Assembly: GCA_942492555.1 (NCBI GenBank)
Contig: CALOEX010000004.1
Span: 11,875-75,874, forward strand
Source: an uncultured Bacteroidota bacterium
GTDB taxonomy: Bacteria > Bacteroidota > Bacteroidia > Cytophagales > Amoebophilaceae
Reading direction: 5' to 3'
Length of the DNA stretch: 64,000 nt
Part shown: in pieces, positions 1,201 through 61,810 of the stretch
How positions within the stretch are numbered: the first letter of the stretch is position 1
How the letters are laid out: each line of letters opens with the position of its first letter
Notes under the pieces: model-generated
What the model was told of the DNA's origin: nothing
Database searches by the model: none
The model's input: only the letters and a program-made list of their open reading frames with translations
Translations under genes and position numbers: made by a program

Positions 1201-1599
1201 GAAAAAAAAGAAAAAAAAAAATGATTGGAAATGTACAAGTGCCAGCCTGAAACTTTTTTACATTTACTCAAAGCAAGAGATTAGGTAGATGATGAACCTT
1301 GTCTCAAATACTCGTTCCATTACAGATTTGACATACCAAAAATGACACACGAAAAAGTGCATCATGCATAGTGAATGAAAATAAATAGTAACAGATCGGT
1401 ACAAAAGAGGCATACACTTTTGTCAACTTGTGTATTTACTTATAGGATTATCAAATTTCATTGGGCATATAAGTTAAAAAGTGGCATAGGGTTCCGGCCG
1501 CAACAGAGCAAGGTCACTTTAAATATCCCATATTTTTTACAAGGCCTTCTTTTTCCCACATTTTGCACACCTTGATTTTCGTTTCTATTTTTTTTGTAG

Positions 1600-1672: not shown

Positions 1673-1755
1673 TTCAAATAAAATTTAGTTATTAAAGCTA
1701 TTTATTTTTAAAAAAATGTATATTGCTTCTTAATTCGTTTCTTATGTTACAAGAT

Positions 1756-11084: not shown

Positions 11085-11229
11085 TGTATAAAAAAGGAAA
11101 TTTGGAGGCTTAAATACAATGAATGTTGGCTTTTTTAGGTAAAAAAACAGATGTTGGCATATTGTGGTGCAAAAGTTCTCTCTTTAGACTATGTCTATCT
11201 GGTTGTAAAATCTTGCAGTTTTAGGATGC
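11085..11229. repeat. Copy 2 of the ~145-bp direct repeat
   Basis: Near-identical to 10854-10998. Only a few differences, in ggaggccttaaatgcagtg versus ggaggcttaaatacaatg. Confidence 0.9.
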
Positions 11230-11932
11230 CATGCATAAGTGTTATAAATGTTGTGTTTTGCAGAAGCCATGGTGGAAAGGTGCTATGGCTTTGTACTTCT
11301 TTAAAGGATGTGGGTGATCCTCTCATTTTTTGGATGTAGGTTGCTACTTGTTTATGATCAATGGTGATGTGCCACAGAATGCTATAGGGGGTTGTGTTGG
11401 TATGGCTTTGGTTGATTTCATAGCGATATGAGTTGCGTATGCCTGTGTAGTTTGTGGTGCTTGTGCATTTTCTTTTTTTTGTATTTTTTGTTCTTTGTTT
11501 GTTTTTGAGGTGCTTTGCGATGTAGTAAACGATGATGAATGTGCGGAATAGTTTCCTTTGGTTTAGTGTATGTTCTGTAGGGGTGTCACTTTGCTTTTTT
11601 TTGCCTTTGGGTTCTTCTCCTACGTTGATGCGAGAACATTTGAGGCGCCATGCTTTTCTTGGTTTGTCCTTAGGGGTGGGATGTGTTTGACGTTCTGCTC
11701 TTTCTTCTCCTTCTCTTCGTTCATCATCATTATCTGGACCACTGGCTGTAGGGGCGGTTTTTTGGGGTATAGGGGGGATAGGTATGAAGGGCATTTGCTT
11801 TTCAAAAGGTGTGGTGTTGTTTTCTTTTTGATATTTTAGCTTTTTTCTTTCTATGAAGAAGTAGGTTAAGGTAGTGAATAGTATGCTTATGAAGCTTGGG
11901 ATAGTGAACACTATAATATATAATTGGTTCAT
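11195..11932 (-). CDS. Doubtful hypothetical protein (N-terminal TM helix, Pro-rich and basic low-complexity tail)
   Basis: 245-aa ORF. The N-terminus MNQLYIIVFTIPSFISILFTTLTYFFI is plausible, but the remainder is low complexity and the 3' end runs into repeat copy 2. Confidence 0.3.
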   Translation of the reverse strand: MNQLYIIVFTIPSFISILFTTLTYFFIERKKLKYQKENNTTPFEKQMPFIPIPPIPQKTAPTASGPDNDDERREGEERAERQTHPTPKDKPRKAWRLKCSRINVGEEPKGKKKQSDTPTEHTLNQRKLFRTFIIVYYIAKHLKNKQRTKNTKKRKCTSTTNYTGIRNSYRYEINQSHTNTTPYSILWHITIDHKQVATYIQKMRGSPTSFKEVQSHSTFPPWLLQNTTFITLMHGILKLQDFTTR

Positions 11933-14728: not shown

Positions 14729-16279
14729 ATGGTGTTATTGCTAAAAAAGATATCTCTTACTAAAACAGCGTTGCTGTTAGTTGTTTTTCTCTTTATAGGA
14801 AGAGAGATGCAAGCAGCGGTGATGCAAGATAAGCCCAAAAAATCAATCAAAAAAGCAACAAAAAAATCATTAAAAAAGACCGTAGCCGATATATCGCCAT
14901 CAACAGTTTTAACACAAAGTCTTAACACAAATCATCAACACATACAAAAAGACAAACAAAGGCAAGAACTCAAACAAAAGAGTAAGTTAAAACACAAAGT
15001 GTTACAAGGACTTATTGCTACCGGCGTAGTGATAGCAAGTGGTATGGTTATTTACAATGTTTTCTTTAAAAAACCATCGTCTAAATCCATAGTGTCCTCT
15101 AAGAATCAAAATATTTCAGTTCCTGCCAATCAAACAACAACACATGCACAAACCATCCAGAATATCATGGATCAAGGAGGGAGTGAAGAATCAGTACAAG
15201 CAAACCTTTTGGGGGCTCTTTTTAACAGAGTGAGAGAAGCCCTTAAAAACCGTAATACCCCAGAAGTAGTTGTGCAAAGACCACTTGTCGAAAAAGTTAC
15301 ACAAAATAGTGCTACAATAGCTCATACATCCCAAAAATCTTTTGTAGAAAAAACATTGGCGTGGTGTATACACAACCCTTACACAGCTGTTTTCTCAAGT
15401 GTATCCGTTGCAGTATTCTTTGCAGTTTCTTATTATCAAGGCTTAGACGAGAGTGCACGTAATATGGGAACAGCAGTTGCAGGAACAATGCTTCTAAATC
15501 AATTAAACACTCCTTCTGCAATAGAAAATAAGCATGTTGACCCTCGTGTGTCCTCTCTGATAAAAGGATTCTTTGGCTATATGGGACTTAGTCTGAGCAA
15601 GCAAATAGATGTTTGGAGTGTTGTGAATAAGAGCGAAGGGTTAAAAAACTACCTAAAAGACAGAAAAGCATTCACGGCAGCAAATAAAGACTCAGCCGGA
15701 GGAAATGATAATCCTGGAGATAGAAAAAAACCACGTTATGCCCTGAATCATTTTCTAGCAGATATATTGCTAGGGAAAGGCATAGCATGGATACAAGCTA
15801 AATTTAAAGAGTGGATAAATAGTTCTCTCATTATTAGCCCCTTAGCGTGGATTGCTAGCAAGGTATTTGGAGATGGAGACAATGTGTCTTATGCCATGAT
15901 GAATATGCTCATTGCTAGTTTCTGTTCTTTTATTGCTTCTGTATTCCTATCTTTGTATGCAAAACATAAAGAAAAAGAAAACCAAAAAACCCTGCAAGAA
16001 GAAGCAAAAATTAAAGAAAAAGAAATGCAGGAACAAAAACAAAGGGAGTTAATTTACCAACAAGAAAAAAAGCGACAAGAAATAGAATCGAACACCCTAT
16101 TAAATTTTGCCAATAAACATCTTTCCACCCAAGTGCGGGCATGGATTGGAGGCATATTGGTGCGTGTAGGAGTATACATACAAACAGTCTTTCCACACCA
16201 TAAAAAAGAAAAAAGCATGCTTGAAAAATTCAATGATGGACGGTTGCATGCTATATGGAGTAGTTTGATGAAACCATAG
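14729..16279 (+). CDS. Hypothetical membrane protein with Lys-rich and coiled-coil segments
   Basis: 516-aa ORF with a signal-anchor at the N-terminus, several TM segments and a KEKE-rich stretch (QEEAKIKEKEMQEQKQRE). Confidence 0.6.
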   Translation: MVLLLKKISLTKTALLLVVFLFIGREMQAAVMQDKPKKSIKKATKKSLKKTVADISPSTVLTQSLNTNHQHIQKDKQRQELKQKSKLKHKVLQGLIATGVVIASGMVIYNVFFKKPSSKSIVSSKNQNISVPANQTTTHAQTIQNIMDQGGSEESVQANLLGALFNRVREALKNRNTPEVVVQRPLVEKVTQNSATIAHTSQKSFVEKTLAWCIHNPYTAVFSSVSVAVFFAVSYYQGLDESARNMGTAVAGTMLLNQLNTPSAIENKHVDPRVSSLIKGFFGYMGLSLSKQIDVWSVVNKSEGLKNYLKDRKAFTAANKDSAGGNDNPGDRKKPRYALNHFLADILLGKGIAWIQAKFKEWINSSLIISPLAWIASKVFGDGDNVSYAMMNMLIASFCSFIASVFLSLYAKHKEKENQKTLQEEAKIKEKEMQEQKQRELIYQQEKKRQEIESNTLLNFANKHLSTQVRAWIGGILVRVGVYIQTVFPHHKKEKSMLEKFNDGRLHAIWSSLMKP

Positions 16280-17930: not shown

Positions 17931-19184
17931 TTATGCCCCCTCTTTATTTTCTGATAAAACACGACGAAGCATAGCTTCTATTTGTGGCGTAATTAAATGT
18001 TCAATAGCTTCAGCATCATCATGAACATGTGTACTATCAATCTTTAAAAAACGCTCCAAATAAGCCTCCCAAAGCAAATGCCTTTCCATTATCCTCTTAC
18101 CATACCTACATCCATCCTTTGTCAACCGCCATTTATCCCTATCCACACAAAACGCAAGCCTTTTTGCACACAATTGTTCCATACCCTTACGTATTTTCCC
18201 AACAGGTATTTTTCTGTATTCTTTCAAAATTTTTAAATCAAGCACCTCCTCATACCCATCATCCAATTGCCCTAACTCAAAAAACATCTTCAATAAATTC
18301 TCCTGTAATATACGCCTACCATAAAGATACATATACCACTTCTTTGGAAAAAAACCCTCTCCAGGAGCAAATAAACAAGATATCAACAACAATAATACAG
18401 ATATCAATACAATACAAGGTCCTGTTGGCATCTCACCTATATAATAAGAGCAGTACATGCCCCCAACACCACTCACACAAGCAACAAAACTCGCAATAGC
18501 CAGCAATACCTTCAATTTTTTCGTCCAAAAAAAACCAGTTACTACAGGTGTAATCAACAGTGCTGTCACCAAAACAACACCCACTGTTTGTATGCCTAAA
18601 ACAATGGCCATTACAGTAATACAACGAAACAAAAAATCCAAACGATGCACAGGCATTCCAACCGTTATAGCAAACGACCTATCAAAACACAACAGTTGCC
18701 ACTCATGAAAAAAAACAAACAAAACCATCAACACCACTGCAGTCAAACAAGCAAAAACCACCACATCCTGCCTACTTAACGCCACAACATTACCCAACAA
18801 AAAATCTTTTAACCCAGACTGCTCCTCATACTCCTTATTATTTTGTACAAAAGACAACAACATAATCCCAAAACCAAAAAAGCTAGCCAATACCAGTGCC
18901 ATGGACGTATCCTTTTTAATTTTAGGGTTTGTATAAGACAAATAATCAATCAATAACATCGCCATCATACCACTCCCCAAAGCTCCAATCGACAAATAAA
19001 AAGCATTTTTTACATGCATAGCAATAAAAGCCAGAACAATACCTGGTAAAACAGCATGCGAGATAACATCCCCTGCAAGCTCTTTTTTTTGCAAGCTAGT
19101 AAAAGTGCCAACAATTGCTAAAATACTCATGGAAAGCATTACACCAATAGCTTGATAAAAAGGTATTACAACATTAAAATCCAT
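17931..19184 (-). CDS. Metal ABC transporter permease (ABC-3 / ZnuB-TroD-YtgC type) fused to a C-terminal DtxR-like repressor domain
   Basis: The N-terminal ~285 aa are a polytopic ABC-3-like permease. The C-terminal ~125 aa read ENLLKMFFELGQ...GMEQLCAKRLAFCVDRDKWRLTKDGCRYGKRIMERHLLWEAYLERFLKIDSTHVHDDAEAIEHLITPQIEAMLRRVL. This aligns by eye with the DtxR winged-helix plus dimerisation/metal-site region (RKHRLAERLL...VHDEACRWEH). Confidence 0.8.
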   Translation of the reverse strand: MDFNVVIPFYQAIGVMLSMSILAIVGTFTSLQKKELAGDVISHAVLPGIVLAFIAMHVKNAFYLSIGALGSGMMAMLLIDYLSYTNPKIKKDTSMALVLASFFGFGIMLLSFVQNNKEYEEQSGLKDFLLGNVVALSRQDVVVFACLTAVVLMVLFVFFHEWQLLCFDRSFAITVGMPVHRLDFLFRCITVMAIVLGIQTVGVVLVTALLITPVVTGFFWTKKLKVLLAIASFVACVSGVGGMYCSYYIGEMPTGPCIVLISVLLLLISCLFAPGEGFFPKKWYMYLYGRRILQENLLKMFFELGQLDDGYEEVLDLKILKEYRKIPVGKIRKGMEQLCAKRLAFCVDRDKWRLTKDGCRYGKRIMERHLLWEAYLERFLKIDSTHVHDDAEAIEHLITPQIEAMLRRVLSENKEGA

Positions 19185-19527: not shown

Positions 19528-22500
19528 ATGAAAAAACAGAATAAAAAAAACACTTTAAGCACAATCTGTATAAGCAACATTATTTTTGTAATCCTAATGT
19601 TCTCCATTACCCCACTGAGTGCAACCTTGCAGTACACACATGCTCTACGCGATATATATCAACAAAACCAAACCTACCACTGCCAAGAACCCATCATCAA
19701 CGCTTTTCCAAACAGCATTCCTCTAGCAATTAACACCAACCAAAATCAACTAAACGCCTTGTTATACACCAGTAACATCCAAAAAAACCTCAGCAACAAC
19801 AACGTAGAAAAAGTAAGTGAAAACTTACAAAACCTCACCAACATCTACCAAAAAAAACTCTTAAACCCAGCAATCATCATACAAAAACTACTAGAAGCCC
19901 TCACAATCCCAACCAATCAATGGGAAACCATCCTTCTCAAACAACATATCGCACAAGCCATCCACCCCTTTATGTACATTTTGTACCATACCCCACACCA
20001 CTACAACAAAACAACATTACAAAATCAAATACAAAAAGCCCAAAACACCATAAACGAAACAAAAGCACCCCAAAACGCACTACGCTTTCACCTCGACTTC
20101 CTACAAGCCATAATAGACAACCTACCTAAAACCCCACATGAACAAAACGAAACAAAAAGCCTCATCATAGCAACCCATCAACTACTACAACAAACCAAAA
20201 ACAACCCTGTTAGCTTAGCCCAAGCAACAAAAAAAATCCATCTGCACCTCAAAAAAAAAACAAATACCACATGGTACCAAATCGTACTATACATCAACCA
20301 CCTCAAACAACAAACCCAAAACAACCCCATAGCCCTAACCTACCTGCAAGAAATACTTGAAAACTACAAAAAACCCACCCTCAAACCCCAAAACAAAATC
20401 ACCCAACAAATCAACAACCTGCTAGGTGTCAAAAACCAACACCATCACAACCCCAAAGGCAACTGGCATATACTATACGCTGGCATAGACACCCTTACAC
20501 ACATGGCCATCCATACTCCCAACCTCCAGACATACCTAAAAACCCCACACAACATCCTACACTATTTAAACATACAAAACCAACAGCAACTAAGCCACCC
20601 CGCCTACAACTGGCGCATCCGCGAAAAAATCCTCGAAAGTACCCTTTTCCTCATCCAACACAAAAACCTACAAATACAGCAACAAGCAACCCACCATCTT
20701 TTCAATAGAGCAATCAAAGAAAAAGACACACGCGTCACCAACATACTCCAACAACCAAGCCTTATCACCGCTATTACAGAAACACTCCAAAAAAATTGGC
20801 AAAACACACCAGAAACCTTCGAAAAAATCCTAGCAAAACACACCCAAAACATAGAGGAACACTTTCAAAACTTATGGGCAAAAAACAATTCCCAATACAC
20901 ACAAAATTTAGAAAAACAACAAAAAATCCATCAAAACATTGCTTCCTATATGGAAAAAAATCACCCTAAAGGTTGCCACGAATGCATCATAAAATACAAA
21001 ATCCAATTTCTTGCCATAGTAGAAAACGAAAAATACAAAATACAAGAACAACTAGATACACTTACCACACAAAACGAAAAACTAGCAAAACGATACAACA
21101 ACATCCTCGCAAAACAGCAAACAATAGCCAACATCCACAACAATCCAGCACCAACCACCCAAGAACTAAAAAACACCCTCCAAACCATACACACTTGTCT
21201 CACAAACAACCTCCAAAAAGAAATAATGCAAATATTACAAATAAACCAACAATTTAAACTAGATATCAATACTGATTTTCTACAAAAAATATACCAAAAA
21301 AGCAACACTATATTGACATCAAGAGAAAAACAAATACTTACAAAAACAATTCAAAACACCAAAGCAACAAAAGAAAACAACGACATCCTCACACTACTTC
21401 AGAAAGAAATACTAGAAAATACACCACATCAACATTATATTTCTCTCAAGGTAATATCAACCCAAGACAAAGAGAGCATCGATATAGACAAAGCGGTGCA
21501 TGATTTTCTCAAAGAAAAAAGCACAAAAAAATGCTCTCTAGTCATTAAAGGCAACTCAGGTGCAGGAAAAACCACCTACATGCACTACCTTTACCACCAA
21601 CTATGGAAAACACGCAAACCCAACGACCCTATACCCCTATTGTTGTCACTAAAAAACTTCGTCAACGTTACAGACCAGCTCGTAGAAACAGCACTTAAAC
21701 AAGAATATACCATCTGGGAAGAAAAAGCAAACCACCTACGAAAAAAATATAGATTTCTTCTATTGCTCGATGGATATGATGAAATGAACTCTACAAAATC
21801 CTTATACCAAAACTATAACCTAAACACATGGGCAGACAAAGTCATTGTAACCATACATCAAGAATATCCCATCACAACCAGTTGCTTTGTCCCATACAAA
21901 AACAACATACCACAAAAACAACTCTGCCAAGAAATAACCTTGCAACCCTTTGATCAAGAGCAAATCAACAACTACTTCAAAACAATAGCACAAGCACCCC
22001 ATAGCATTTGGCAAGATTGGCATCTATACCGCAACACCCTAGACAAAATGCCTATTATAGCGAAAATAGCAAGCAATCCTCTAACGTTGCAAATTATCTG
22101 TTATGTTTTTGCAAACAAAGAAAAAAAAAACATCTTAAAACAACATCCCACATCCATAGACATCTATACAGCCCTCATTCGCCACACAATCAACCACGAT
22201 AAAAAAAAAGCGCATATTCCCGTAGAAAAATACCTCAAATTTGCACAAAAGCTAGCCATTGCCATGCTTTGTCAAAAAGAAAAAAAAATTACTTATCAAT
22301 ACCCCAAAAAAAATAATACTTGGATCTTTACAAATCCATCATTTTACTCCTATTTTATAACCCAAGCGATCTGTGACCAAATCTTTTCCACAATCGACAC
22401 AACTTTCAACACCAACAACCTCCTTCTCAACAAAACACTCTTAAACAATGAACATGAAGTCCTACAATTACTTACAGATATCACCCTAAAAAGCACAATG

Positions 22501-24942
22501 TTTAAACAGCAACTATTCAGCTATATAGAAACCTCAAAAAATAATCCCAACATAGCCATTGCCGCTGCCAATAGCGCTACTATTCTAGCCAAAGCCAACA
22601 TACCACTTAACGATCTCGACTGGCAAGGCATCCGCATTTCAGGTGCTAATCTTGATGGTGCTTTCCTTGCACGTACAAATTTTTCTGGTAGTGACTGTCG
22701 CAATTTAAGTGTTAAAGAATCCTATCTAGAAAACACCAAATGGGTTGGTACTCAAATAAAAGGAATAGACTTTGGTGCTTATCCTTATTTAGAACACCCA
22801 TGGGAAGTTACAGAAGCCATTTGGGCACCCCACAACCTATTGGCAACAAGTAGCCAAGACAATCTCTATATTTATATTTGGGATACTGAGAGTAGCAAAC
22901 TTTTACACACTTGCAAAAAACACAAAGATAGTATCCGAGCCATCAAATGGTCACCCAAGGGCAATAAAATAGCCACTGCTAGCGATGACAGCACCATCTG
23001 TATTTGGCATAGAAATGGAAATCATATTGCTACCTGCCAAGGACACCTAGACTATGTCAACACGATCGCATGGTCCCCAGACGGGAAAAAGCTCGCCTCT
23101 GCCAGCGATGATAATACCGTGTGCATTTGGGATGCTACAACAGGCAATGTTATCAAGGTGTGTAAAGGGCATACAGAAGCAGTGAAATCTGTAACCTGGT
23201 CACCAGATAACCAATACATAGCCTCTGCCAGTGATGACAAAACCATATGTATTTGGGATGCTACAACAGGTAACCCCTATAAAAAACAGACTTATACAAG
23301 CACAATAAGCCATGTTTGTTGGTCACCCAATAGCAATAAAATAGCCATTGTATCTACTGATCAATCCATATATATATATGACACCATCCATGCTACAACC
23401 CAAGAGTGCAAAGGCCACCTAGGGCTTATCAATGCTATCCAATGGTCATCTACAAAAAAACTTGCTTCTGCCAGCAATGACCATACTATACGCATCTGGA
23501 ATGAACATGGAAAACCACTTGCTCTATGCAACGGGCATACAGGGGAAGTAAACGATGTAAAATGGTCACCCAATGCCACAAAACTCGCTTCTGCTAGTTC
23601 TGATAAAACAGTACGAGTCTGGGATGCAACAAATGGTAAACTTTTGCGAGAGTATAGAGGGCATACCTATTATGTAAATTCGGTAAGCTGGTCTGAAGAC
23701 GGTACAAAAATCGCTTCTGCCAGTGAAGATAAAACTGTGCGCATTTGGAATGGAAACATAAAAATACCACACAAATACACAACTTCCTTCTCTTGCGTAG
23801 ATTGGTCTCAAGATGGAAAAATGCTTGCTGTAGGTAGTAAAAAAAATACTGTACAACTTTGGGATAGCAAACGTGGCAAAGTTATGTGCGAATCTCCAAA
23901 ACACTGTGGTGGTATCAGTTGTATACGATGGTCACCCAACAAACAACACTTTGCTTCTGGAGGAATTGATGCCATTGTATATATCTGGCAAGGGCATACA
24001 GGTAAATTACTATACACATGTAAACAACACATTGAAGACATTAGTTGCTTAGCATGGTCACCAAACGGAAAACAACTAGCCTCTTCCTCCTACGATAGCA
24101 CTCTATGTCTTTGGGATACCAACACAGGAAAAATGATACAGCACTGCAAAGGACCCAAGCAAGGTATCAATGCCATTAGCTGGTCTTCAAATGGCGATCA
24201 AATAGCCTCTTCTAGCTGGGATAATATGATATATATTTGGCATGCTTTTACAGGCAATATTCTTTATATATACAAAGGGCATGAAAATTGGATAGTTTCA
24301 TTACAATGGTCACCCAAAGAATCCTCTAAGTTGGCATCGGGTAGTTGGGACAAAAGCGTTCACATTCTAGATATAGGAGATCAAAAAACCCATAATAGCT
24401 CCATTTTGCAATATAGAGGACATAGAGACTTTATATCTTCTATAGACTGGTCTCCAAATGGTAAAAAAATTGCTTCTGCCAGTTGGGACAAAACCACCCA
24501 AGTATGGGATATCAACACAGGAAAAATATGCTATACCTGCAAAAACCCTGGTAATATACAAATTGTTAAATGGTCTGCAAATGGAAAAAAACTCGCTTCA
24601 CTTAGCGATAACAACACCGTTACTATATGCAATGGAAATACAGGTAAAATCATTTGCATTTGTAAAAACAGAAAAGGATTGATCACTACCATTAGCTGGT
24701 GCCCAAACAACAAAAAAATCATCACTGTCAACGATGACAAAACCATGTACATTTGGGATGCACAAAAAGGGCATATCATCATGCTTTTAGGTAATCAAAA
24801 CCTCTTTTTATGGGGATTATACATAGAAAATGCACACGGTCTATCCCTTAATAACCACAAACTCATCATACAAAACAAAGGTATTGTTTCACCTTATGTT
24901 CCTACCGACTATGATAACGATGAAAAAAAAGACATAAAATAA
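19528..24942 (+). CDS. STAND NTPase: N-terminal signal-anchor + ~640-aa Q/N/T/H/K-rich region + NACHT + pentapeptide repeats + ~16 WD40 repeats
   Basis: Walker A is VIKGNSGAGKTTYMHYLY (about 21551) and Walker B is FLLLLDGYDEM (about 21755). Pentapeptide repeats GANLDGAFLARTNFSGSDCRNLSVKESYLENTKW lie at about 22618-22775. They are followed by repeated ...WSPDGKKLASASDDNTVCIWDATTG... units. Confidence 0.9.
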   Translation: MKKQNKKNTLSTICISNIIFVILMFSITPLSATLQYTHALRDIYQQNQTYHCQEPIINAFPNSIPLAINTNQNQLNALLYTSNIQKNLSNNNVEKVSENLQNLTNIYQKKLLNPAIIIQKLLEALTIPTNQWETILLKQHIAQAIHPFMYILYHTPHHYNKTTLQNQIQKAQNTINETKAPQNALRFHLDFLQAIIDNLPKTPHEQNETKSLIIATHQLLQQTKNNPVSLAQATKKIHLHLKKKTNTTWYQIVLYINHLKQQTQNNPIALTYLQEILENYKKPTLKPQNKITQQINNLLGVKNQHHHNPKGNWHILYAGIDTLTHMAIHTPNLQTYLKTPHNILHYLNIQNQQQLSHPAYNWRIREKILESTLFLIQHKNLQIQQQATHHLFNRAIKEKDTRVTNILQQPSLITAITETLQKNWQNTPETFEKILAKHTQNIEEHFQNLWAKNNSQYTQNLEKQQKIHQNIASYMEKNHPKGCHECIIKYKIQFLAIVENEKYKIQEQLDTLTTQNEKLAKRYNNILAKQQTIANIHNNPAPTTQELKNTLQTIHTCLTNNLQKEIMQILQINQQFKLDINTDFLQKIYQKSNTILTSREKQILTKTIQNTKATKENNDILTLLQKEILENTPHQHYISLKVISTQDKESIDIDKAVHDFLKEKSTKKCSLVIKGNSGAGKTTYMHYLYHQLWKTRKPNDPIPLLLSLKNFVNVTDQLVETALKQEYTIWEEKANHLRKKYRFLLLLDGYDEMNSTKSLYQNYNLNTWADKVIVTIHQEYPITTSCFVPYKNNIPQKQLCQEITLQPFDQEQINNYFKTIAQAPHSIWQDWHLYRNTLDKMPIIAKIASNPLTLQIICYVFANKEKKNILKQHPTSIDIYTALIRHTINHDKKKAHIPVEKYLKFAQKLAIAMLCQKEKKITYQYPKKNNTWIFTNPSFYSYFITQAICDQIFSTIDTTFNTNNLLLNKTLLNNEHEVLQLLTDITLKSTMFKQQLFSYIETSKNNPNIAIAAANSATILAKANIPLNDLDWQGIRISGANLDGAFLARTNFSGSDCRNLSVKESYLENTKWVGTQIKGIDFGAYPYLEHPWEVTEAIWAPHNLLATSSQDNLYIYIWDTESSKLLHTCKKHKDSIRAIKWSPKGNKIATASDDSTICIWHRNGNHIATCQGHLDYVNTIAWSPDGKKLASASDDNTVCIWDATTGNVIKVCKGHTEAVKSVTWSPDNQYIASASDDKTICIWDATTGNPYKKQTYTSTISHVCWSPNSNKIAIVSTDQSIYIYDTIHATTQECKGHLGLINAIQWSSTKKLASASNDHTIRIWNEHGKPLALCNGHTGEVNDVKWSPNATKLASASSDKTVRVWDATNGKLLREYRGHTYYVNSVSWSEDGTKIASASEDKTVRIWNGNIKIPHKYTTSFSCVDWSQDGKMLAVGSKKNTVQLWDSKRGKVMCESPKHCGGISCIRWSPNKQHFASGGIDAIVYIWQGHTGKLLYTCKQHIEDISCLAWSPNGKQLASSSYDSTLCLWDTNTGKMIQHCKGPKQGINAISWSSNGDQIASSSWDNMIYIWHAFTGNILYIYKGHENWIVSLQWSPKESSKLASGSWDKSVHILDIGDQKTHNSSILQYRGHRDFISSIDWSPNGKKIASASWDKTTQVWDINTGKICYTCKNPGNIQIVKWSANGKKLASLSDNNTVTICNGNTGKIICICKNRKGLITTISWCPNNKKIITVNDDKTMYIWDAQKGHIIMLLGNQNLFLWGLYIENAHGLSLNNHKLIIQNKGIVSPYVPTDYDNDEKKDIK
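22790..24775. repeat. Array of ~16 WD40 coding repeats (~126 bp each)
   Basis: Hand count of W(S/A)P...A(S/T)(A/S)S.D.T..IWD units. Adjacent units 3 and 4 share gcctctgccagYgatgaYaaWaccRtRtgYatttgggatgctacaacaggYaa. Confidence 0.85.
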
Positions 24943-25142: not shown

Positions 25143-26276
25143 ATGGAAAGAAATAACACACCTCAAAACAAAAAACAAACTAAAAACGCCCTTTATCTTT
25201 TAGTTTGCTTTGGAGTAATAGCAATAGGATTAGGCATATATTTATTTTTATATCTTCCGCAAACAGAGTCTCAGCAAACAGAGTCTCAGCAAACAGAGTC
25301 TCAGCAAACAGTGCTAGTTTGCTTGGAAAAAAAATATGCTCAAGCTTTTGATACGCATGATCCAAACAAACCAGTAAAATCCCTCGAGGGATTTGTGCCA
25401 CTTGCTGTTGAATTCTTCAAAATGATACCACGAGCATATGAAACCTATCTCCAACAAGATCCGTTAACATTGCCACAGGAGAAAAAGTTTTATAAAGAAG
25501 TATTAGACAAAGTTGCTCAAGAGCAAGGGAAGTTGCTGATCGGTGCTGATGCGCCCTCTAGTGACATTATAAATGAAAAAAATATGGATGAATTTCTAGA
25601 TGCATGGATGCAATATGTATTGATTAACGCAAAGAGTCAATCTATGTCTAAAGAGATCTTTATCCGAAATATGAAAAGCTATTATATTGGAAGCCGAATA
25701 ATCTTAGATACGGCACAAGCACTGCGAGATTTTGGTTATGGCACAAAAGAAACAGAAGGCAAAGAAGATACACCTTATGTAGCCTATGAGAAACAACTAA
25801 CTCAACTAGCACAAGAGGGGCAAATACCAGGCATGAATCAGGAACAAACAAAGCTTGGTTCGGAAAAGGAACAATTATTTGAAAAAATAAAGCACACATT
25901 GTTTTCTCCATCTTATGTTGCACAGCTCGAATCTACACATACAGATAATCAACTGGATTTTCTTTCTTTAATAAATGAAGAGAACTTAAATAAAGCAATG
26001 AATTTTGCTATCGATAATGAAGAATGGCGTCAATTTGTACAAAATATAGCTATAGCAAACCTAAAGCTAGCTATGTGCGAAAGTATACAAAACAACAAGA
26101 AACCCAACCAGAAACAAGAGGATGCAAATATAAACACAATACCAACAACATCCTCCGGTAACAACACCGCAAAAAAAGAGCATTGTGGACCAGATACAAC
26201 AAATCAAAATGAAAGCATCCCCGGTAACAACACCTCAACAAAAAATGAAAATATAAACAACACAGAAAAACAATAA
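25143..26276 (+). CDS. Hypothetical N-terminally anchored protein with QTESQ repeat and N/T-rich tail
   Basis: 377-aa ORF with TM LYLLVCFGVIAIGLGIYLFLYL. No recognisable domain. Confidence 0.6.
   Translation: MERNNTPQNKKQTKNALYLLVCFGVIAIGLGIYLFLYLPQTESQQTESQQTESQQTVLVCLEKKYAQAFDTHDPNKPVKSLEGFVPLAVEFFKMIPRAYETYLQQDPLTLPQEKKFYKEVLDKVAQEQGKLLIGADAPSSDIINEKNMDEFLDAWMQYVLINAKSQSMSKEIFIRNMKSYYIGSRIILDTAQALRDFGYGTKETEGKEDTPYVAYEKQLTQLAQEGQIPGMNQEQTKLGSEKEQLFEKIKHTLFSPSYVAQLESTHTDNQLDFLSLINEENLNKAMNFAIDNEEWRQFVQNIAIANLKLAMCESIQNNKKPNQKQEDANINTIPTTSSGNNTAKKEHCGPDTTNQNESIPGNNTSTKNENINNTEKQ
25259..25310. repeat. 15-bp in-frame tandem repeat (gcaaacagagtctca) x about 3.4 encoding QTESQ repeats
   Basis: Read directly: aaacagagtctcagcaaacagagtctcagcaaacagagtctcagcaaacag. 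Confidence 0.9.
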
Positions 26277-31858: not shown

Positions 31859-32851
31859 CTATTGCTCTTTTTTCTTACGTTTTTGTAGCAAGAATAACAA
31901 GCCAATACCCATGAAAGCAAATACAAAAAACAACCATGCTATTTTTGTATTTTGCCCACTTTTCTTATCGGCTTGATGTGGTGCAGTTCTTGTTTTTGTT
32001 ACCTGTGACTTCTTCTGGTTTCCATGGGAATAATAGGCTATTGTAGCTAGGAGACTACCTAAAACCATTATTTTAGTAGGTAAAAATTTAAGAAGTCTTT
32101 TGCACAAAGAAATCTTAGGTTGTATGGTAGGTTTTTTTGCATTGTGCATGTTGGATTGTGTTATTTGTCTATTAGCACATTCCGTAGGTACACGAGGAAC
32201 ACAAGTCTCGGAGCAATTTATAGGTGTTGTTGCATTGTGCATGTTGGATTGTGTTATGTGTATAACTTCCTTAGGTATAGGAGCAACACAAGTCTTGGAA
32301 CAATTTATAGGTTTTTTTAGCGTGTTCCACAATGTAGCAGATTTGGAGTTGTTCTCGCATGTTGGTATGGGTACATTCTTTGATGAAAGAACCAGTACTG
32401 TGCGAGAAGAAGGACTATATAGTGTTGTTTGTAGAGTTTTTGACTTATATAGTTGATCTGTTTTATGAGTTTGAGGTGGAGTTCTTGACACTTTTATATA
32501 CTTATAGAGTTGATCTTTTATATTTTGTATCTTTGTTGCAATGTCTTTATACTTTTTTTCCACTTTTGGGTCGGAAGGATGTATAGTCTTGAGAAGATCT
32601 ATTTCTTTTTTGTATTTTTCTAAATCTTGTTTGTATGCTAAAACAGTTGGACTATTTTTTTTCGGATCTATATTTTTTGCTAATGCATTCAGGTAGTTTT
32701 GTATAGAGTTTAACGATGTTTCTATCTGTTGGAATTGCTTTTCGATAGGGCATGTAGCATGATTTTTCATCGTAGAAGCTTCTTGTGCAGTACAAGCCAT
32801 CATGGTAGTAAACCATAGTGCCCATATCATTTTTTGTTTTGTATTATACAT
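31859..32851 (-). CDS. Hypothetical secreted/lipoprotein-like protein with 31-aa internal repeat and C-terminal TM anchor
   Basis: N-terminus MIWALWFTTMMACTAQ, repeats ...ITQSNMHNA..PINCS.TCV..., C-terminus IAWLFFVFAFMGIGLLFLLQKRKKKEQ. Confidence 0.65.
   Translation of the reverse strand: MYNTKQKMIWALWFTTMMACTAQEASTMKNHATCPIEKQFQQIETSLNSIQNYLNALAKNIDPKKNSPTVLAYKQDLEKYKKEIDLLKTIHPSDPKVEKKYKDIATKIQNIKDQLYKYIKVSRTPPQTHKTDQLYKSKTLQTTLYSPSSRTVLVLSSKNVPIPTCENNSKSATLWNTLKKPINCSKTCVAPIPKEVIHITQSNMHNATTPINCSETCVPRVPTECANRQITQSNMHNAKKPTIQPKISLCKRLLKFLPTKIMVLGSLLATIAYYSHGNQKKSQVTKTRTAPHQADKKSGQNTKIAWLFFVFAFMGIGLLFLLQKRKKKEQ
32138..32323. repeat. 93-bp tandem repeat x2 inside CDS 31859-32851
   Basis: tgcattgtgcatgttggattgtgttat... 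begins at 32138 and again at 32231. Confidence 0.85.
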
Positions 32852-38597: not shown

Positions 38598-41500
38598 ATG
38601 GACATAACCAATAACAACAACAGAGATTCTTTGATTATAGATCCTCTAAAAAAAAACAGTGCTAAAAAAGATTTGAAAGAAAAAGAGATTAAAAACTCCA
38701 AAGAAAAACAAATCCAAAAAGTTAGTACCCAAAAAATAGAAAAGCAAAAAAAACAGGATAGTGCAATAGAAAGAAAAAAAGAAAGAATAAGCTTTTCAAA
38801 GTTACCCTTTGAAAGTGAATATCCAGATTTACTAGCTTTACAAGTAGAGTCTTTCAAAAAATTATTTGAGATAGGAGACACACGTTTGCAAAAAGAACCC
38901 AAGAGACTTTTTAAAATCTTTGAAGAACTCTTCCCTATTTCCGATACAAGAGGAGATCTCAATTTAACCTTTTTAGGATACACCATTTTACCCCCTTGCT
39001 ACACACCCAATGAATGTCTTGAATTAGGCACAACATATGATGTTCCCCTTAAAGCTCATTTTAGGTTAACATGCAAAGATGGAGGGACTACACGCGTAGT
39101 AGAAGAAGAAGTATACCTATTAAATATCCCATACATGACCCCTAAGGGATCCTTTATTTTCAGAGGTACAGAAATTACCGTTGTATCACAACTAGAACGA
39201 TCCCCAGGTGTTTTCTTTTCACAAACAAAACACACAACAGGCGTAAATCTATACACTGCCAAAATCATCCCCGCAATAGGTACATGGAATGAATTCTTCG
39301 TTGACATGTACAATGTAATGCATGCCTATTTAGACCGAAGGAAAAAAATACCCGTAACACTTTTACTACGTGCCATAGGATATAGTAGCGACAAAGAAAT
39401 ATTACAACTTTTTGACCTAGCAGAAGAAGTCAATGTCAATAAAGTCACATTACAAAAATACAAAGGACGCACACTAGCAGGAAAAGTACTCAGAACTTGG
39501 AATGAAGAATACATCGATGTCGAAACAGATGAAGTAGTAACCATGCCACGTCACGAAGTAGTTTTAGACCGCAATACCATCCTAAACGATGAAGCTATAG
39601 AAAAAATTCTAGCATCAGGACAAAGAAAAATCATGTTATTAAAAGCAGACATAACTGAACATGACTTTTTCTTCATCTACACCACATTACAAGAAGATCC
39701 CACCAATTCAGAAAAAGAAGCTATTGAGTACATATACTGTCAATTCCGCAATTCTACACCAGGTGATGAAATAGTTACAAGAGAATTCGTAAAACAAATT
39801 CTCTTTAGTCCAAAGCGTTCTTTCCTAGGCCACATAGGTCGGCACTCACTCAACAAAAAACTAGGATATGAAACACCTAGAGAAGACTTTTTGCTCACAG
39901 AAGAAGACATTGTAGCCACCATTAAAGTCTTTCCAGACCTCATGAAAGGCAAACGAGCAACAGAAGATCTAGACAGCTTAGTAAACCGAATCGTACTTTT
40001 ATCTGGAGATCTTATATACCTAGCATTAGAACGAGGCGTAAAAGCCGCTGTACACTATGCACGAGAAACAATCAACAACCTTAGCGACGATCTTCCCACA
40101 CCCTTTGATATCATTAGTGGAAGCTATATAACATCAGTACTATCCACCTTCTTCAATATTGAGCCAAATGCACAGTATAAAGATCAAACCAATGCCCTTA
40201 GTGAGCTAGAACATAGCAGACGTATTACAAAAATAGGAAAAAACCTCACACAAGAAAGAGCTGGTATTGACGTGCGAGACGTACATCCTACACATTACGG
40301 TCGCCTATGTCCCATATCAACACCAGAAGGTGCCAACATTGGTCTTATCAGTCACTTTGCTCTCAATACACGCGTCAACGAACTAGGCTTTTTAGAAGCC
40401 CCATACAAAAAAGTAGACAACAAAAAAATCAAAATAGACCAAACAGTATACTTAACAGCAGAAGAAGAAGAAAAAAAATTAATTGCACAATATACATTAG
40501 CTGTTAACAAAGAAGGATTAATAACAGAAAATAGCATCATTGCCAGAGATTCAAAAGGAGAATTCCACCGAACATCACCTGAAAAAGTAGATTATATAGA
40601 CGTTCGTAGCGACATGGCATTTTCAGCAGCAGCCTCCTTAATACCTTTTATTTCCAATACAGAACCAGGACGTGCAACAGGAGGAGTAAACATGCAACGC
40701 CAAGCAGTTCCTCTATTGACACAACAAGCACCCATTGTAGGTACTGGGCAAGAAAAACGCATTGCAAAAGACTCCTGTGTCCTCATTGTAGCAGAAGAAG
40801 ATGGGATAGTACACTATGTAGATGCCAATAAAATCATCATCAAAGAACATGTCCCCAAAGAATTTGAAGAATTATTATATGAGCCACCCTTCAAAACCTA
40901 TCATTTAACACGTTTACAACCCACAAACCAAGGCATTGCCATTATACATAAACCCATTGTCTCCAAGGGACAAAAAATCAACAAAGGAGATTTTCTGTGC
41001 GAAGGCTACACCATTAAAGACGGAGAGCTAGCACTCGGGCAAAATTTACGTGTTGCCATCGCTGCTTGGGGAGGCTTTAACTTCGAAGATAGTATTGTAG
41101 TATCAGAAAGAGTAGTAAAAGAAGACCTGCTAACATCCATACACATCGAAGAATTCAGCGTAGACCTATTCAATACAAAATTAGGATCTGAAGAATTCAC
41201 ATCAGACATTCCAGGCGTTAGTGAACAAGCACTAAAAATATTAGATGAAAACGGTATTGTAAAACTTGGTACAGAAATAAAAGAAGGAGATATCCTCGTT
41301 GGAAAAATCACCCCACAAAGCAATGAAACACCATCTCCAGAAGCAAAGTTAATAGCGGCTATCTTCGGAGAAACCGCTAGCAATGTAAGAGACACCTCTT
41401 TCCGAGCACCCTTTGCTTGTAAAGGAACCGTTATTGGTACCAAAATACTTTATGGACAACAAGTACGCCAACAAAAATCAAAAGATATAGAAAAACAAAT

Positions 41501-58876: not shown

Positions 58877-58904
58877 GGTGTTATTATTGGGTGTTTTTAA
58901 TGGT

Positions 58905-61766: not shown

Positions 61767-61810
61767 GATTTTGTCTTTTTGCAATAAATCTATATTTTTT
61801 AAATCATTTT

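What the first reader, a model, noticed from the sequence alone, without database searches (positions are those of the whole stretch)
19528..24942. 1804-aa bacterial NLR-like protein: signal-anchor + 640-aa low-complexity domain + NACHT + pentapeptide + ~16 WD40
The NACHT Walker A/B motifs and a double-propeller-sized WD40 sensor match the STAND/NLR architecture used in eukaryotic innate immunity and in bacterial anti-phage bNACHT/Avs systems. Where an effector domain would be expected, there is instead a hydrophobic N-terminal anchor (ICISNIIFVILMFSITPL). It is followed by ~640 aa made almost only of Q/N/T/H/K/P/I/L, with weak periodicity (for example QQTKNNPVSLAQATKKIH and KQQTQNNPIALTYLQEIL). 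A pentapeptide-repeat spacer between NACHT and WD40 is also unusual. The function could be defence, programmed death or host manipulation; none of these is established.
Basis: partly seen in the sequence, partly recalled or inferred. Interest (0 to 1): 0.7.

Follow-up and report, generated by a model that had tools for sequence, protein, structure and literature searches.

The report
Exported NLR-like protein, new helical head
A deep-branching Bacteroidota bacterium encodes an intact 1804-residue NLR-type switch protein whose "low-complexity" front third is in fact an export signal plus a conserved, previously undescribed 400-residue helical-repeat domain, found in about 20 other protein clusters (one in a eukaryote), which suggests an NLR-like machine that works outside the bacterial cytoplasm.

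Summary
The ORF (19528-24942, +) is real, intact and 1804 aa long. NACHT (Walker A GNSGAGKT, Walker B DGYDE), a pentapeptide module and 16 WD40 blades are all confirmed.

It is not low-complexity filler. Residues 1-33 form a Sec-type signal. Residues about 60-470 form a conserved all-alpha, ARM/HEAT-like domain (AlphaFold pLDDT 80, pTM 0.81) with no Pfam, PDB or Foldseek match. Residues 471-650 form a helical linker. The Q/N/T/H/K/P bias is lineage-specific drift laid over that fold.

The domain defines a rare family: 22 clusters among 1.84 billion representatives. It is fused to NACHT-pentapeptide-WD40, NB-ARC-TPR or ankyrin modules. Twelve of about 18 complete members start with a signal peptide or lipobox. 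One member is a genuine Hexamita nuclear gene that starts MGICCSS.

The window gene has no PADLOC hit and no defence-island context.

Best reading (0.42): an exported or surface-tethered STAND switch with a non-enzymatic adaptor head, probably directed at a host. The main rival is a membrane-tethered anti-phage NLR (0.30).

It is a new variant of a known kind.

The parts
19528..24942 (+). Complete gene: 1804-aa exported NACHT-pentapeptide-WD40 STAND protein
   Evidence: Uninterrupted ORF. Collinear with 1810-aa homolog P0001 over 92% of its length.
19528..19626 (+). Sec-type N-terminal signal (res 1-33): n-region MKKQNKK, h-region ICISNIIFVILMFSIT, c-region PLSAT. Either a cleavable signal peptide or a signal anchor.
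   Evidence: KD15 maximum of 2.66 with 4 K/R before it; the only hydrophobic segment in the protein. P0001 has the same n-h-c layout ending in LSAT although the sequence is only 24% identical. 12 of ~18 complete family N-termini carry a signal peptide or lipobox. No dedicated predictor was available.
19705..20937 (+). New N-terminal alpha-solenoid domain (res ~60-470), ~19 helices. Motifs: NALRFHLD (183-190), WYQIVLYINHLK (249-260), GNWHILYAGIDTL (311-323), NWRIREK (361-367), EKDTRV (398-403).
   Evidence: Full HMMER search found 22 clusters with E<=1e-3. 17-sequence alignment A3. AlphaFold2 pLDDT 80.1, pTM 0.81. No Pfam, PDB-sequence or Foldseek match with E<0.001; the weak top hits are ARM/HEAT proteins.
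20938..21477 (+). Helical, possibly coiled-coil linker (res 471-650), ending in the conserved pre-NACHT motif (HYISLKV..SIDIDKAVHDFL)
   Evidence: Long helices predicted at low confidence. Weak 3.5-residue hydrophobic periodicity, p about 0.04. The linker motif is shared with P0001, P0150 and with ORFs in L002 and L003.
21478..22527 (+). NACHT NTPase module with its C-terminal helical region (res 651-1000). Pfam NACHT core is res 671-819.
   Evidence: PF05729 44 bits against a cutoff of 26.7. Family-specific NACHT alignment.
21550..21576 (+). Walker A GNSGAGKTT (res 675-683, Lys681)
21757..21786 (+). Walker B LLLLDGYDEM (res 744-753), carrying the NACHT signature D[GAS]hDE
   Evidence: The signature definition is read from Kibby et al..
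21841..21864 (+). Sensor-1 strand VIVTIHQE (res 772-779). His778 stands where most relatives have Arg.
   Evidence: In the alignment of family NACHT modules, P0001, P0150, P0151, P0155, P0159 and P0161 have R at this position, while P0162 has T and P0158 has Q.
22528..22761 (+). Family-specific helical cap plus pentapeptide-repeat module (res 1001-1078; NPNIAIAAANSATILAKANI...GANLDGAFLARTNFSGSDC...)
   Evidence: PF00805 21.8 bits against a cutoff of 20.2. The module HMM finds it in P0001, P0151, P0161 and twice in P0162.
22762..24759 (+). 16 WD40 blades (res 1079-1744): the presumed ligand sensor, large enough for two propellers
   Evidence: Pfam WD40 1e-123 in 14 stretches. Blade list. 24-54% identical to P0001, against 76-98% in the N-domain core.
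24760..24939 (+). C-terminal tail (res 1745-1804). No T9SS C-terminal sorting domain was detected.
   Evidence: The NCBIfam scan of the whole protein at E<=0.1 gave no T9SS CTD model.

Best explanation
The gene encodes a working-length STAND (NLR-type) switch built from five units. In order, they are a Sec-type export signal, a conserved ~400-aa ARM/HEAT-like alpha-solenoid 'head' that defines a previously undescribed family, a helical linker, a NACHT NTPase, and a pentapeptide beta-helix followed by 16 WD40 blades.

Shown:
- The anatomy, and the reality and fold class of the head domain.
- Its modular fusion to NACHT, NB-ARC-TPR or ankyrin modules.
- The prevalence of signal peptides and lipoboxes in the family.
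- The absence of any recognisable enzymatic effector.
- The absence of defence-system hits and of defence-gene context.

Inferred mechanism: the WD40/pentapeptide sensor holds the NACHT module in an off state. Ligand binding allows nucleotide exchange and oligomerisation, as in Apaf-1 and other NLR-type proteins. Oligomerisation clusters the N-terminal solenoid and linker, which act as a non-enzymatic adaptor or scaffold at a membrane surface.

Inferred location: the protein and most relatives carry Sec or lipoprotein signals, a NACHT switch needs NTP, and the periplasm has none. The most likely site of action is therefore outside the bacterial cytoplasm, on the surface of or released from a host-associated, probably intracellular, Bacteroidota and facing host cytosol. 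On this reading it is a host-directed effector or surface receptor and not an anti-phage system. The Hexamita homolog starts with an N-myristoylation/palmitoylation-like motif, which fits the same theme of a membrane-tethered, cytosol-facing STAND protein.
For: Anatomy.

The head domain is real and conserved. Full HMMER search found 22 clusters, with alignment A3 and an AlphaFold2 model at pLDDT 80.1 and pTM 0.81. The weak Foldseek hits are all ARM/HEAT solenoids. No residues typical of a catalytic site are conserved; the invariant residues are P, L, W, E and V, plus W/R/R/Y. Net charge is not conserved across the family.

Modularity: NACHT, NB-ARC-TPR and ankyrin partners. Split or abutting N-domain and NACHT-WD40 genes occur in L002 and L003.

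Export:
- The window protein has an n-h-c signal, and P0001 shares the layout and the LSAT site despite 24% identity there.
- Lipoboxes occur in P0149, P0156 and P0160, and signal peptides in P0150, P0152, P0154, P0157, P0164, P0165 and P0167.
- Several members have Gln at or next to the predicted cleavage site. This fits the Bacteroidetes 'Q-rule', which I cite from memory.
- L001 also encodes WD40 lipoproteins.

Not defence-like: no PADLOC hit for the N-terminal or NACHT parts, and housekeeping neighbours with no defence models.

Organism: RpoB is only 60% identical to its nearest relative and 46-49% to ordinary Bacteroidota. G+C is 36%, there are many orphan ORFs with signal-like N-termini, and the genome is absent from the GTDB representatives.

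Precedent: NACHT/WD40 proteins have been proposed as effectors of a protist endosymbiont (bioRxiv 10.64898/2026.04.11.717937). NACHT genes are noted in obligate intracellular bacteria (Kibby et al.).

Eukaryotic member: 24 in-frame TAA/TAG codons read through only under code 6, and the protein starts MGICCSS.
Against: - Export is inferred from sequence features only. No signal-peptide predictor and no experiment were available, and six family members lack any signal.
- No route across the outer membrane is identified. No T9SS C-terminal domain was found, and the rest of the genome could not be examined.
- The intracellular or host-associated lifestyle is not demonstrated. The window also carries a photolyase and ordinary housekeeping genes.
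- Sensor-1 Arg is His in this protein, so NTP hydrolysis may be impaired.
- A caspase gene and a second NACHT-WD40 gene lie next to a family member in L002. That resembles bacterial cell-death/conflict loci.
- The sensor diverges faster than the head domain between the two close copies, which is also the pattern seen in immune receptors.
Confidence: 0.42

Rival explanations
1. It is a bacterial immune or abortive-infection NLR (bNACHT/Avs-like) tethered to the inner membrane by its N-terminal helix, with the bulk of the protein in the cytoplasm. The WD40 blades sense a phage or mobile-element protein, NACHT oligomerises, and the clustered N-terminal solenoid and linker damage the membrane or recruit a partner such as a caspase, which kills or arrests the cell.
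For: It has the STAND architecture with a repeat sensor and an N-terminal non-NTPase domain in the effector position. Beta-propeller and pentapeptide sensors are catalogued in bacterial NACHT proteins, and non-enzymatic 'adaptor' N-termini are known. In L002 a caspase (Peptidase_C14) gene and a second NACHT-WD40 gene lie next to a family member. The sensor is more divergent than the head domain between the window protein and P0001. P0151 lies beside a transposase.
Against: No PADLOC model matches the NACHT or N-terminal regions. The window neighbours are housekeeping genes with no defence hits. The positive-inside rule (4 Lys before the hydrophobic segment, about neutral after it) places the bulk of the protein outside the membrane, not inside. 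Three relatives have unambiguous lipoboxes, meaning the protein is exported and then lipidated. The family also includes ankyrin-only partners and a eukaryotic nuclear gene, which an anti-phage role does not predict.
Confidence: 0.3
2. It is a periplasmic or surface scaffold or adhesin in which the NACHT module has lost its switching function and serves only as an oligomerisation or structural unit. The WD40 blades and the solenoid would then be binding surfaces for envelope or environmental ligands.
For: It has an export signal and the periplasm lacks NTP (plus established knowledge). Sensor-1 Arg is replaced by His. No enzymatic effector is present. Other exported WD40 lipoproteins occur in L001.
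Against: Walker A and the full D-G-h-D-E Walker B are intact in the window protein and are conserved across most family members. That argues for retained nucleotide binding under selection. The same head domain is fused to a second, independent STAND class (NB-ARC) with an intact P-loop, which suggests that the NTPase matters.
Confidence: 0.12
3. The N-terminal 640 aa is non-functional: low-complexity drift, a mis-joined ORF, or a decaying pseudogene. Only the NACHT-WD40 part would be meaningful.
For: The region has a strong Q/N/T/H/K/P/I/L bias of 75%. Pfam gives no hit. Relatives in L002 and L003 appear fragmented.
Against: The reading frame is intact. Residues 100-450 are the most conserved part of the protein against P0001, at 76-98% identity. 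Homologs with normal composition exist. The fold prediction is confident. The same N-domain to NACHT fusion occurs in at least six independent proteins.
Confidence: 0.03

Closest known systems
Bacterial NACHT (bNACHT) NLR-related proteins (Kibby et al., 25 NACHT clades; bioRxiv 10.1101/2022.07.19.500537)
   Same: It has a central NACHT with the D[GAS]hDE Walker B signature and C-terminal repeats that form superstructures; beta-propeller and pentapeptide repeats are both listed as sensors. It also has an N-terminal non-NTPase domain in the effector/adaptor position. That paper already notes NACHT genes in obligate intracellular bacteria.
   Different: No PADLOC defence model matches and there is no defence-island context. 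The N-terminal domain is not one of the catalogued enzymatic effectors or known adaptors: it matches no Pfam family. A Sec or lipoprotein signal precedes it. In the text I read, TM regions are described only as multi-pass sensor elements, not as N-terminal export signals. Clade assignment was not possible with these tools.
Apaf-1 / fungal NWD and HET-E type NACHT- or NB-ARC-WD40 proteins
   Same: It has a STAND NTPase followed by a double-propeller-sized WD40 array. The best non-family hits of the whole protein are fungal and cyanobacterial NACHT/nSTAND-WD40 proteins. The presumed logic is ligand-triggered oligomerisation that clusters an N-terminal adaptor.
   Different: Similarity is confined to the WD40 part (22-34% identity over 16-37% of the query). 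The N-terminal domain is neither CARD, HET, HeLo nor any other known adaptor. A pentapeptide module lies between NACHT and WD40. An export signal is present. No solved structure is close by sequence (best E 0.17).
Eukaryote-like repeat/NLR-like candidate effectors of intracellular protist symbionts (e.g. the Legionellales symbiont of Anaeramoeba, bioRxiv 10.64898/2026.04.11.717937)
   Same: Those are large multidomain proteins with WD40, ankyrin, ARM and NACHT elements, encoded by host-associated bacteria and proposed to act in the host cell. In this family, ankyrin-fused members and a homolog in a metamonad eukaryote fit that theme.
   Different: Those candidates are in Gammaproteobacteria with a Dot/Icm type IV system. 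Here the organism is a divergent Bacteroidota, the targeting feature is a Sec or lipoprotein signal, and no translocation system is identified. No sequence relationship was shown.
ARM/HEAT alpha-solenoid scaffolds (importin-alpha/beta, APC, designed armadillo proteins)
   Same: The fold is all-alpha with ~40-aa helical-hairpin repeats. The weak top Foldseek hits are all of this class (E 0.03-0.3, probability up to 0.91). The WRIREKxxES...ExDxRV motif resembles HEAT-repeat consensus; that resemblance is my own knowledge and serves only as a lead.
   Different: Global superposition is poor (TM about 0.2), and no hit reaches E<0.001. No Pfam ARM/HEAT model is matched consistently. The domain is a discrete ~400-aa unit with its own sharply conserved motifs.

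Membership tests
NACHT clade of STAND NTPases | Walker A P-loop GxxxxGK[ST] | tested here: met
   GNSGAGKT at res 675-682.
NACHT clade of STAND NTPases | Walker B with the D[GAS]hDE signature (definition read from Kibby et al.) | tested here: met
   LLLLDGYDEM at res 744-753, giving D-G-Y-D-E.
NACHT clade of STAND NTPases | Match to Pfam PF05729 above its gathering score | tested here: met
   44.0 bits against a cutoff of 26.7, covering profile positions 3-162 of 167.
NACHT clade of STAND NTPases | Sensor-1 arginine after strand 4 (typical of STAND/AAA+ proteins, but not the defining signature) | tested here: not met
   The window protein has VTIHQE, with His778. P0001, P0150, P0151, P0155, P0159 and P0161 have Arg at that position. 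This lowers confidence in hydrolysis competence, not in homology.
NACHT clade of STAND NTPases | Winged-helix domain C-terminal to the NTPase core | not tested
Residues 820-1000 were not modelled.
Anti-phage bNACHT / Avs defence systems | Sequence match to catalogued defence-system models | tested here: not met
   PADLOC-DB v2 gave only a WD40-region hit to HEAT-ARM_XIII. Nothing matched the N-terminal or NACHT segments even at E<=10.
Anti-phage bNACHT / Avs defence systems | Location among other defence genes or mobile elements | tested here: not met
   The neighbours are a Tro-like ABC permease, YchF, AhpC, DUF805, a MutS-like protein, ProRS and two orphan ORFs. No PADLOC hits were found apart from one marginal 18.5-bit P-loop match.
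Anti-phage bNACHT / Avs defence systems | Protection against phage that depends on NTP binding | not testable with these tools
   This requires heterologous expression and phage challenge.
WD40 beta-propeller | Tandem ~40-aa WD repeats in numbers that close a propeller | tested here: met
   16 blades of 38-45 aa at res 1079-1744. PF00400 E 1e-123 in 14 stretches.
Pentapeptide repeat (PF00805) | Tandem A(D/N)LXX pentapeptides above the Pfam cutoff | tested here: met
   21.8 bits against a cutoff of 20.2, which is marginal. The conserved module is shared with 4 relatives.
Sec-exported proteins (signal peptide or lipoprotein) | Positively charged n-region, 10-20-aa hydrophobic h-region, and a c-region with small residues at -3 and -1 | tested here: inconclusive
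   The n- and h-regions are clear (4 Lys; KD15 2.66). The c-region PLSAT has Pro at -5, Ser at -3 and Thr at -1. Whether it is cleaved or acts as a signal anchor could not be decided, because no SignalP, LipoP or TMHMM was available. Relatives P0149, P0156 and P0160 have lipoboxes.
Type IX secretion substrates (Bacteroidota) | Conserved C-terminal sorting domain (for example TIGR04183) | tested here: not met
   The NCBIfam scan of the whole protein at E<=0.1 returned no CTD model. The tail after the last blade is only 60 aa.
ARM/HEAT alpha-solenoid superfamily (N-domain) | Significant structural or profile similarity to known ARM/HEAT repeats | tested here: inconclusive
   The best Foldseek hits are all ARM/HEAT proteins, but with E 0.03-0.3 and TM about 0.2. 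No Pfam ARM/HEAT model is matched by more than one member.

The most novel reading that the evidence does not exclude
This gene is the type example of a class of NLR-like STAND NTPases that are exported by the Sec or lipoprotein pathway and operate outside the bacterial cytoplasm. They would be tethered to the symbiont surface or released into a eukaryotic host's cytosol. There a bacterial NLR-type oligomerising machine, with its own conserved alpha-solenoid head, would sense and rewire host components. The family has also crossed kingdoms: a descendant in the diplomonad Hexamita is retargeted to membranes by N-terminal acylation. That would make it a living example of symbiont-to-host traffic of NLR-type modules.
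Probability: 0.27. Interest if true: 0.85.

Novelty: new variant of a known kind. Interest (0 to 1): 0.64.

Why it matters
Every STAND/NLR protein characterised so far, in animals, plants, fungi and bacteria, works inside the cytoplasm of the cell that makes it. This family carries Sec or lipoprotein export signals in front of a complete NACHT or NB-ARC switch. If the signals function, either NLR-type machines are deployed by bacteria into or onto another cell, or there is an unrecognised way of running a STAND switch outside the cytoplasm.

The work also defines a new ~400-residue N-terminal domain, absent from Pfam, with a confident predicted fold and sharply conserved motifs. The domain can now be searched for, modelled and tested.

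The bona fide Hexamita nuclear homolog gives a concrete case for studying transfer of NLR-type modules between bacteria and protists. That question bears on the proposed bacterial (endosymbiont) origins of eukaryotic NLRs.

If the protein instead turns out to be a membrane-tethered anti-phage NLR, it would still add a new adaptor/effector domain to the bacterial immune repertoire.

Tried and rejected
1. Two genome-contig scans for the N-domain, one with a single sequence and one with the 2-sequence alignment, found nothing.
2. The look-up of encoding contigs for P0001 and for the window protein returned 'not on record'. I could not obtain P0001's DNA, so dN/dS and gene-conversion tests were impossible. 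Whether P0001 is a paralog in the same genome remains an inference. It rests on there being no RpoB between 60% and 100% identity in the database, and on both proteins being NCBI-only on different contigs.
3. The search for homologous proteins with family alignment A3 returned nothing, not even P0001. I treat this as a limitation of the word index and not as a negative result.
4. AlphaFold2 on residues 1-660 with a 2-sequence alignment gave a useless model (pLDDT 42.7). It was replaced by the 17-sequence run.
5. Foldseek against PDB and BFVD, a PDB sequence search with the family profile, a PDB sequence search with the NACHT module, and Pfam scans of every family member gave no specific homolog.
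6. The JGI metagenome scan with alignment A4 found nothing. The scan with the NNWRIREK DNA pattern gave 42 loci, all chance matches when screened with the family HMM.
7. I first took P0149 to be a stand-alone N-domain lipoprotein. I rejected that reading. The ORFs that follow it in L002 are fragments of a family-type NACHT and WD40 region in alternating frames, so it is a fragmented full-length member, either a pseudogene or a long-read assembly error.
8. I considered a T9SS substrate and rejected it because there is no C-terminal sorting domain.
9. I asked whether the odd A+C-rich composition marks a foreign island. It does not. Several other window genes, including the photolyase gene and two unannotated large ORFs that I guessed to be tRNA synthetases, share the bias.
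10. The orphan neighbours (516 aa upstream, 377 aa downstream) do not recur next to family members elsewhere, so I do not count them as parts of the system.
11. Net charge and Cys/His content of the head domain are not conserved, so there is no support for a nucleic-acid-binding, lipid-binding or metal-dependent catalytic role.
Full report
OBSERVATION

The ORF at 19528-24942 (+) is present exactly as described. It starts at ATG and runs for 1804 codons with no internal stop. A stop codon lies two codons upstream of the ATG, so the frame cannot be extended 5'.

When the whole protein is scanned, WD40 propeller families swamp the Pfam table (PF00400, E 1e-123, 14 stretches). When the central piece is scanned alone, NACHT (PF05729, 44 bits against a cutoff of 26.7) and Pentapeptide (PF00805, 21.8 against 20.2) both pass their curated cutoffs.

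Listing the blades gives 16 WD40 repeats of 38-45 aa at residues 1079-1744. Walker A is GNSGAGKT (675-682). Walker B is LLLLDGYDEM (744-753). That carries the D[GAS]hDE signature which Kibby et al. use to separate NACHT from other STAND NTPases.

One deviation was found. The sensor-1 arginine present in most relatives is a histidine here (VTIHQE, His778).

The N-terminus has four lysines followed by an 18-residue hydrophobic stretch and then PLSAT. It is the only hydrophobic segment in the protein.

THE N-TERMINAL THIRD IS A REAL DOMAIN

The word-indexed search of 5.8 billion proteins found a single full-length relative, P0001 (1810 aa, 51% identity, 92% coverage). Every other hit aligns only to the WD40/NACHT part.

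The identity profile against P0001 is strikingly mosaic. It is 76-98% over residues 100-450, but 24-62% in the linker, NACHT and WD40 regions, apart from 80% over residues 1001-1050 in the pentapeptide-module cap. The supposedly low-complexity segment is therefore the most conserved part of the protein.

A full HMMER search of residues 35-640 against 1.84 billion representatives found 22 clusters at E<=1e-3. Nine reach 1e-10 and four reach 1e-30. Iterated local searching delimits a ~400-aa unit, at window residues ~60-470. One protein, P0153, carries two copies.

The 17-sequence alignment (A3) shows sharp motifs: NGLRFELD, WYEVVLYIDYLK, GNWHILYAGIDAL, NNWRIREKxxES, ExDxRV and a following P..I.T. 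The invariant residues are P, L, W, E and V, and W/R/R/Y are nearly invariant.

With only two sequences AlphaFold2 failed (pLDDT 42.7). With A3 it gave a confident all-alpha model of about 19 helices (pLDDT 80.1, pTM 0.81).

The 'weak periodicity' is thus a structural repeat.

Foldseek against PDB and BFVD found nothing at E<0.001. The weak top hits are all ARM/HEAT solenoids, including designed armadillo proteins, importin-alpha/beta and APC (E 0.03-0.3, TM about 0.2). No Pfam family is matched by more than one member. The family profile finds no PDB sequence.

The compositional bias is specific to this lineage. Q/N/T/H/K/P/I/L account for 76-77% of the domain in the window protein and P0001, but 41-53% in the other fifteen domains. 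Several other genes in the window, including the photolyase gene, share the A+C-rich coding strand.

Conclusion: this is a previously undescribed ARM/HEAT-like alpha-solenoid domain. It is followed by a helical linker (residues 471-650) predicted at low confidence, with only weak heptad-like periodicity.

WHAT THE DOMAIN IS ATTACHED TO

The family's architectures are:
- N-domain, linker, NACHT, pentapeptide module, beta-propeller: the window protein, P0001, P0151, P0161 and P0162. P0162 has an extra N-terminal region and two pentapeptide/propeller units.
- N-domain plus NACHT, in proteins or fragments that end before any repeats: P0150, P0155 and P0159.
- N-domain, NB-ARC, TPR: P0154 by Pfam. 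P0169 looks similar from its sequence but was not scanned.
- N-domain plus ankyrin repeats: P0167.
- N-domain plus long Q/E-rich helices: P0152.

The pentapeptide element belongs to a conserved ~100-aa module (AANSxTILNxA...) shared across the family. It is barely detectable in one unrelated NACHT-WD40 protein.

Genomic contexts add fusion/fission evidence. In L003 a protein with two N-domains abuts and overlaps a separate NACHT-WD40 gene. In L002 the apparent stand-alone P0149 is followed by ORFs in alternating frames that are pieces of a family-type NACHT and WD40 region. It is therefore a fragmented full-length member. A Peptidase_C14 (caspase) gene and a second NACHT-WD40 gene lie just upstream of it.

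The head domain is thus a constant N-terminal unit linked to STAND switches of two classes. It has no conserved residues typical of a catalytic site and no conserved net charge. This points to an adaptor or scaffold rather than an enzyme.

EXPORT SIGNALS

Twelve of about eighteen complete N-termini in the family begin with a Sec-type signal:
- The window protein and P0001 share the n-h-c layout and the LSAT site although this segment is only 24% identical.
- P0150, P0152, P0154, P0157, P0164, P0165 and P0167 have signal peptides.
- P0149, P0156 and P0160 have lipoboxes (LLTVLAC, FFTAC, LTILGC).

These include proteins with NACHT and with NB-ARC. Several have Gln at or next to the predicted cleavage site (SAT|Q, LQAT|Q, LYAT|Q). 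This fits the Bacteroidetes 'Q-rule' for signal peptidase I substrates, which I cite from memory and not from a tool.

The locus of P0151 also encodes two WD40 proteins that start with a lipobox (LLAGC). No T9SS C-terminal domain is present in the window protein.

I could not run a dedicated signal-peptide predictor. Cleavage versus signal anchor therefore remains open, and six members have no signal.

ORGANISM AND CONTEXT

The window is chromosomal. It carries a tRNA cluster followed by ORFs that look like tuf and rpoB/rpoC, plus UvrB, a photolyase, ProRS and YchF.

RpoB is only 60% identical to its nearest database relative and 46-49% to ordinary Bacteroidota. That nearest relative sits in the same ENA assembly (ERZ26692640) as family member P0151. 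I could not show that the two contigs belong to one organism.

The genome is not among the GTDB representatives. No RpoB lies between 60% and 100% identity, so P0001 (also NCBI-only, on a 375,765-bp contig against 122,341 bp for the window's contig) is most simply a paralog in the same genome. This is an inference.

The window gene lies between a Tro-like ABC permease and YchF on one side and an orphan ORF, AhpC, DUF805 and a MutS-like gene on the other. There are no defence-system hits. No PADLOC model matches its N-terminal or NACHT parts. No terminator-like site separates it from the downstream 377-aa orphan ORF, but that ORF does not recur beside relatives.

A EUKARYOTIC MEMBER

One cluster (P0158 plus two more sequences) is annotated from Hexamita inflata. 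The gene on CAXDID020000560.1 has 24 in-frame TAA/TAG codons that read through only under the diplomonad nuclear code. It sits in 29.5% G+C DNA. It is therefore a genuine nuclear gene and not contamination.

It starts MGICCSS, which resembles a myristoylation/palmitoylation motif (my reading of the motif). It ends inside a degenerate NACHT module.

MECHANISM

Shown: the anatomy, the conservation, fold class and modularity of the head domain, the prevalence of export signals, and the lack of defence-system signatures.

Inferred: a standard STAND cycle. The sensor keeps the switch off, ligand binding allows nucleotide exchange and oligomerisation, and oligomerisation clusters the N-terminal units, with the solenoid and linker acting as a non-enzymatic adaptor at a membrane surface.

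A NACHT switch needs NTP, and the family is predominantly exported or lipid-anchored. I therefore favour action outside the bacterial cytoplasm, on or from a host-associated bacterium and facing host cytosol (confidence 0.42).

The main rival is an inner-membrane-tethered abortive-infection NLR (0.30). It is supported by the caspase and NACHT neighbours in L002 and by the sensor diverging faster than the head domain. It is weakened by the positive-inside orientation, the lipoboxes, the absent defence context, the ankyrin-fused member and the eukaryotic member.

A structural role with a dead NTPase is possible (0.12). Junk or a pseudogene is essentially excluded (0.03).

COMPARISON WITH KNOWN SYSTEMS AND NOVELTY

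Membership in the NACHT clade is supported by three tests: the P-loop, the D-G-h-D-E signature and the Pfam cutoff. Membership in catalogued anti-phage bNACHT/Avs systems is not supported.

Beta-propeller and pentapeptide sensors and non-enzymatic N-terminal adaptors are already known for bacterial NACHT proteins. NACHT/WD40 proteins have been proposed as effectors of a protist endosymbiont. NACHT genes in obligate intracellular bacteria have been noted.

What is new:
- the head domain itself;
- its consistent association with Sec or lipoprotein signals in front of complete STAND switches;
- its presence in a diplomonad genome.

I found no paper describing any of these.

I rate it a new variant of a known kind, with interest 0.64.

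Noticed in passing
L048 (Hexamita inflata GCA_963988835.2, CAXDID020000560.1) 510-2396: A homolog of the N-domain plus a partial NACHT is a genuine diplomonad nuclear gene. It has 24 in-frame TAA/TAG codons that read as Gln under code 6. It starts MGICCSS, an acylation-like motif, and ends after the sensor-1 region. Three near-identical copies lie on different large contigs.
   Followed up: partly
L002 690-13491: Three consecutive genes start with lipobox-like signals (LMANC, LLISC, LLTVLAC). The lipobox ORF at 2037-2273 is in the same frame as the Peptidase_C14 ORF at 2334-3611, separated by a single TAG. The family member after P0149 is broken into ORFs in alternating frames. This could be pseudogenisation or long-read assembly errors. 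If the fusions are real, the caspase would also be an exported lipoprotein.
   Followed up: partly
L001 16136-18518: There are two tandem, nearly identical 369-aa WD40 proteins with lipoprotein-type N-termini (MLYLNKKIALSLLAGC...). They lie in the same locus as family member P0151, which has an rve-family transposase immediately upstream. Four more WD40 genes lie further upstream.
   Followed up: no
window 38598-42683: RpoB is 1361 aa, about 70-90 aa longer than its Bacteroidota relatives (1260-1300 aa). It has a Lys/Asn-rich N-terminal extension. It is only 60% identical to its nearest database relative and 46-49% to typical Bacteroidota, which points to a very deep or fast-evolving lineage.
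   Followed up: partly
window 893-1247 (+) versus 1723-4544 (+): Short ORF fragments at 893-1111 and 1110-1247 resemble the orphan genes at 1723-3855 (710 aa) and 3855-4544 (229 aa). They are an apparent decayed tandem duplicate of that gene pair.
   Followed up: no
window 11195-11932 (-), 31859-32851 (-), 47016-48422 (+), 57617-61784 (-): A subset of genes, including the photolyase gene and two unannotated large ORFs (57617-58912 and 58905-61784) that I guessed to be tRNA synthetases, share the strongly A+C-rich, G-poor coding strand seen in the NACHT gene (C 0.20-0.27, G 0.12-0.16). Other genes in the window do not. The cause of this two-class composition is unexplained.
   Followed up: no
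window 17931-19184 (-): An ABC-3 (TroC/ZnuB-like) metal-transporter permease is fused to a C-terminal iron-dependent repressor domain (Fe_dep_repr_C). This puts a transporter and a regulator in one polypeptide, immediately upstream and divergent from the NACHT gene.
   Followed up: no
window 1723-3855, 3855-4544, 14729-16279, 25143-26276, 48565-51528, 55473-55955: Six orphan ORFs (160-987 aa) have no Pfam match. Most have signal-peptide-like or TM-like N-termini. The 377-aa ORF just downstream of the NACHT gene contains a TESQQ x3 repeat after its TM segment.
   Followed up: partly
L005 1699-9636 (P0162): A 2645-aa family member carries an extra ~370-aa N-terminal region with a GNCAFHAA motif, which resembles an OTU/cysteine-protease motif (my reading). 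It also has two successive pentapeptide-plus-propeller units after its NACHT module.
   Followed up: no
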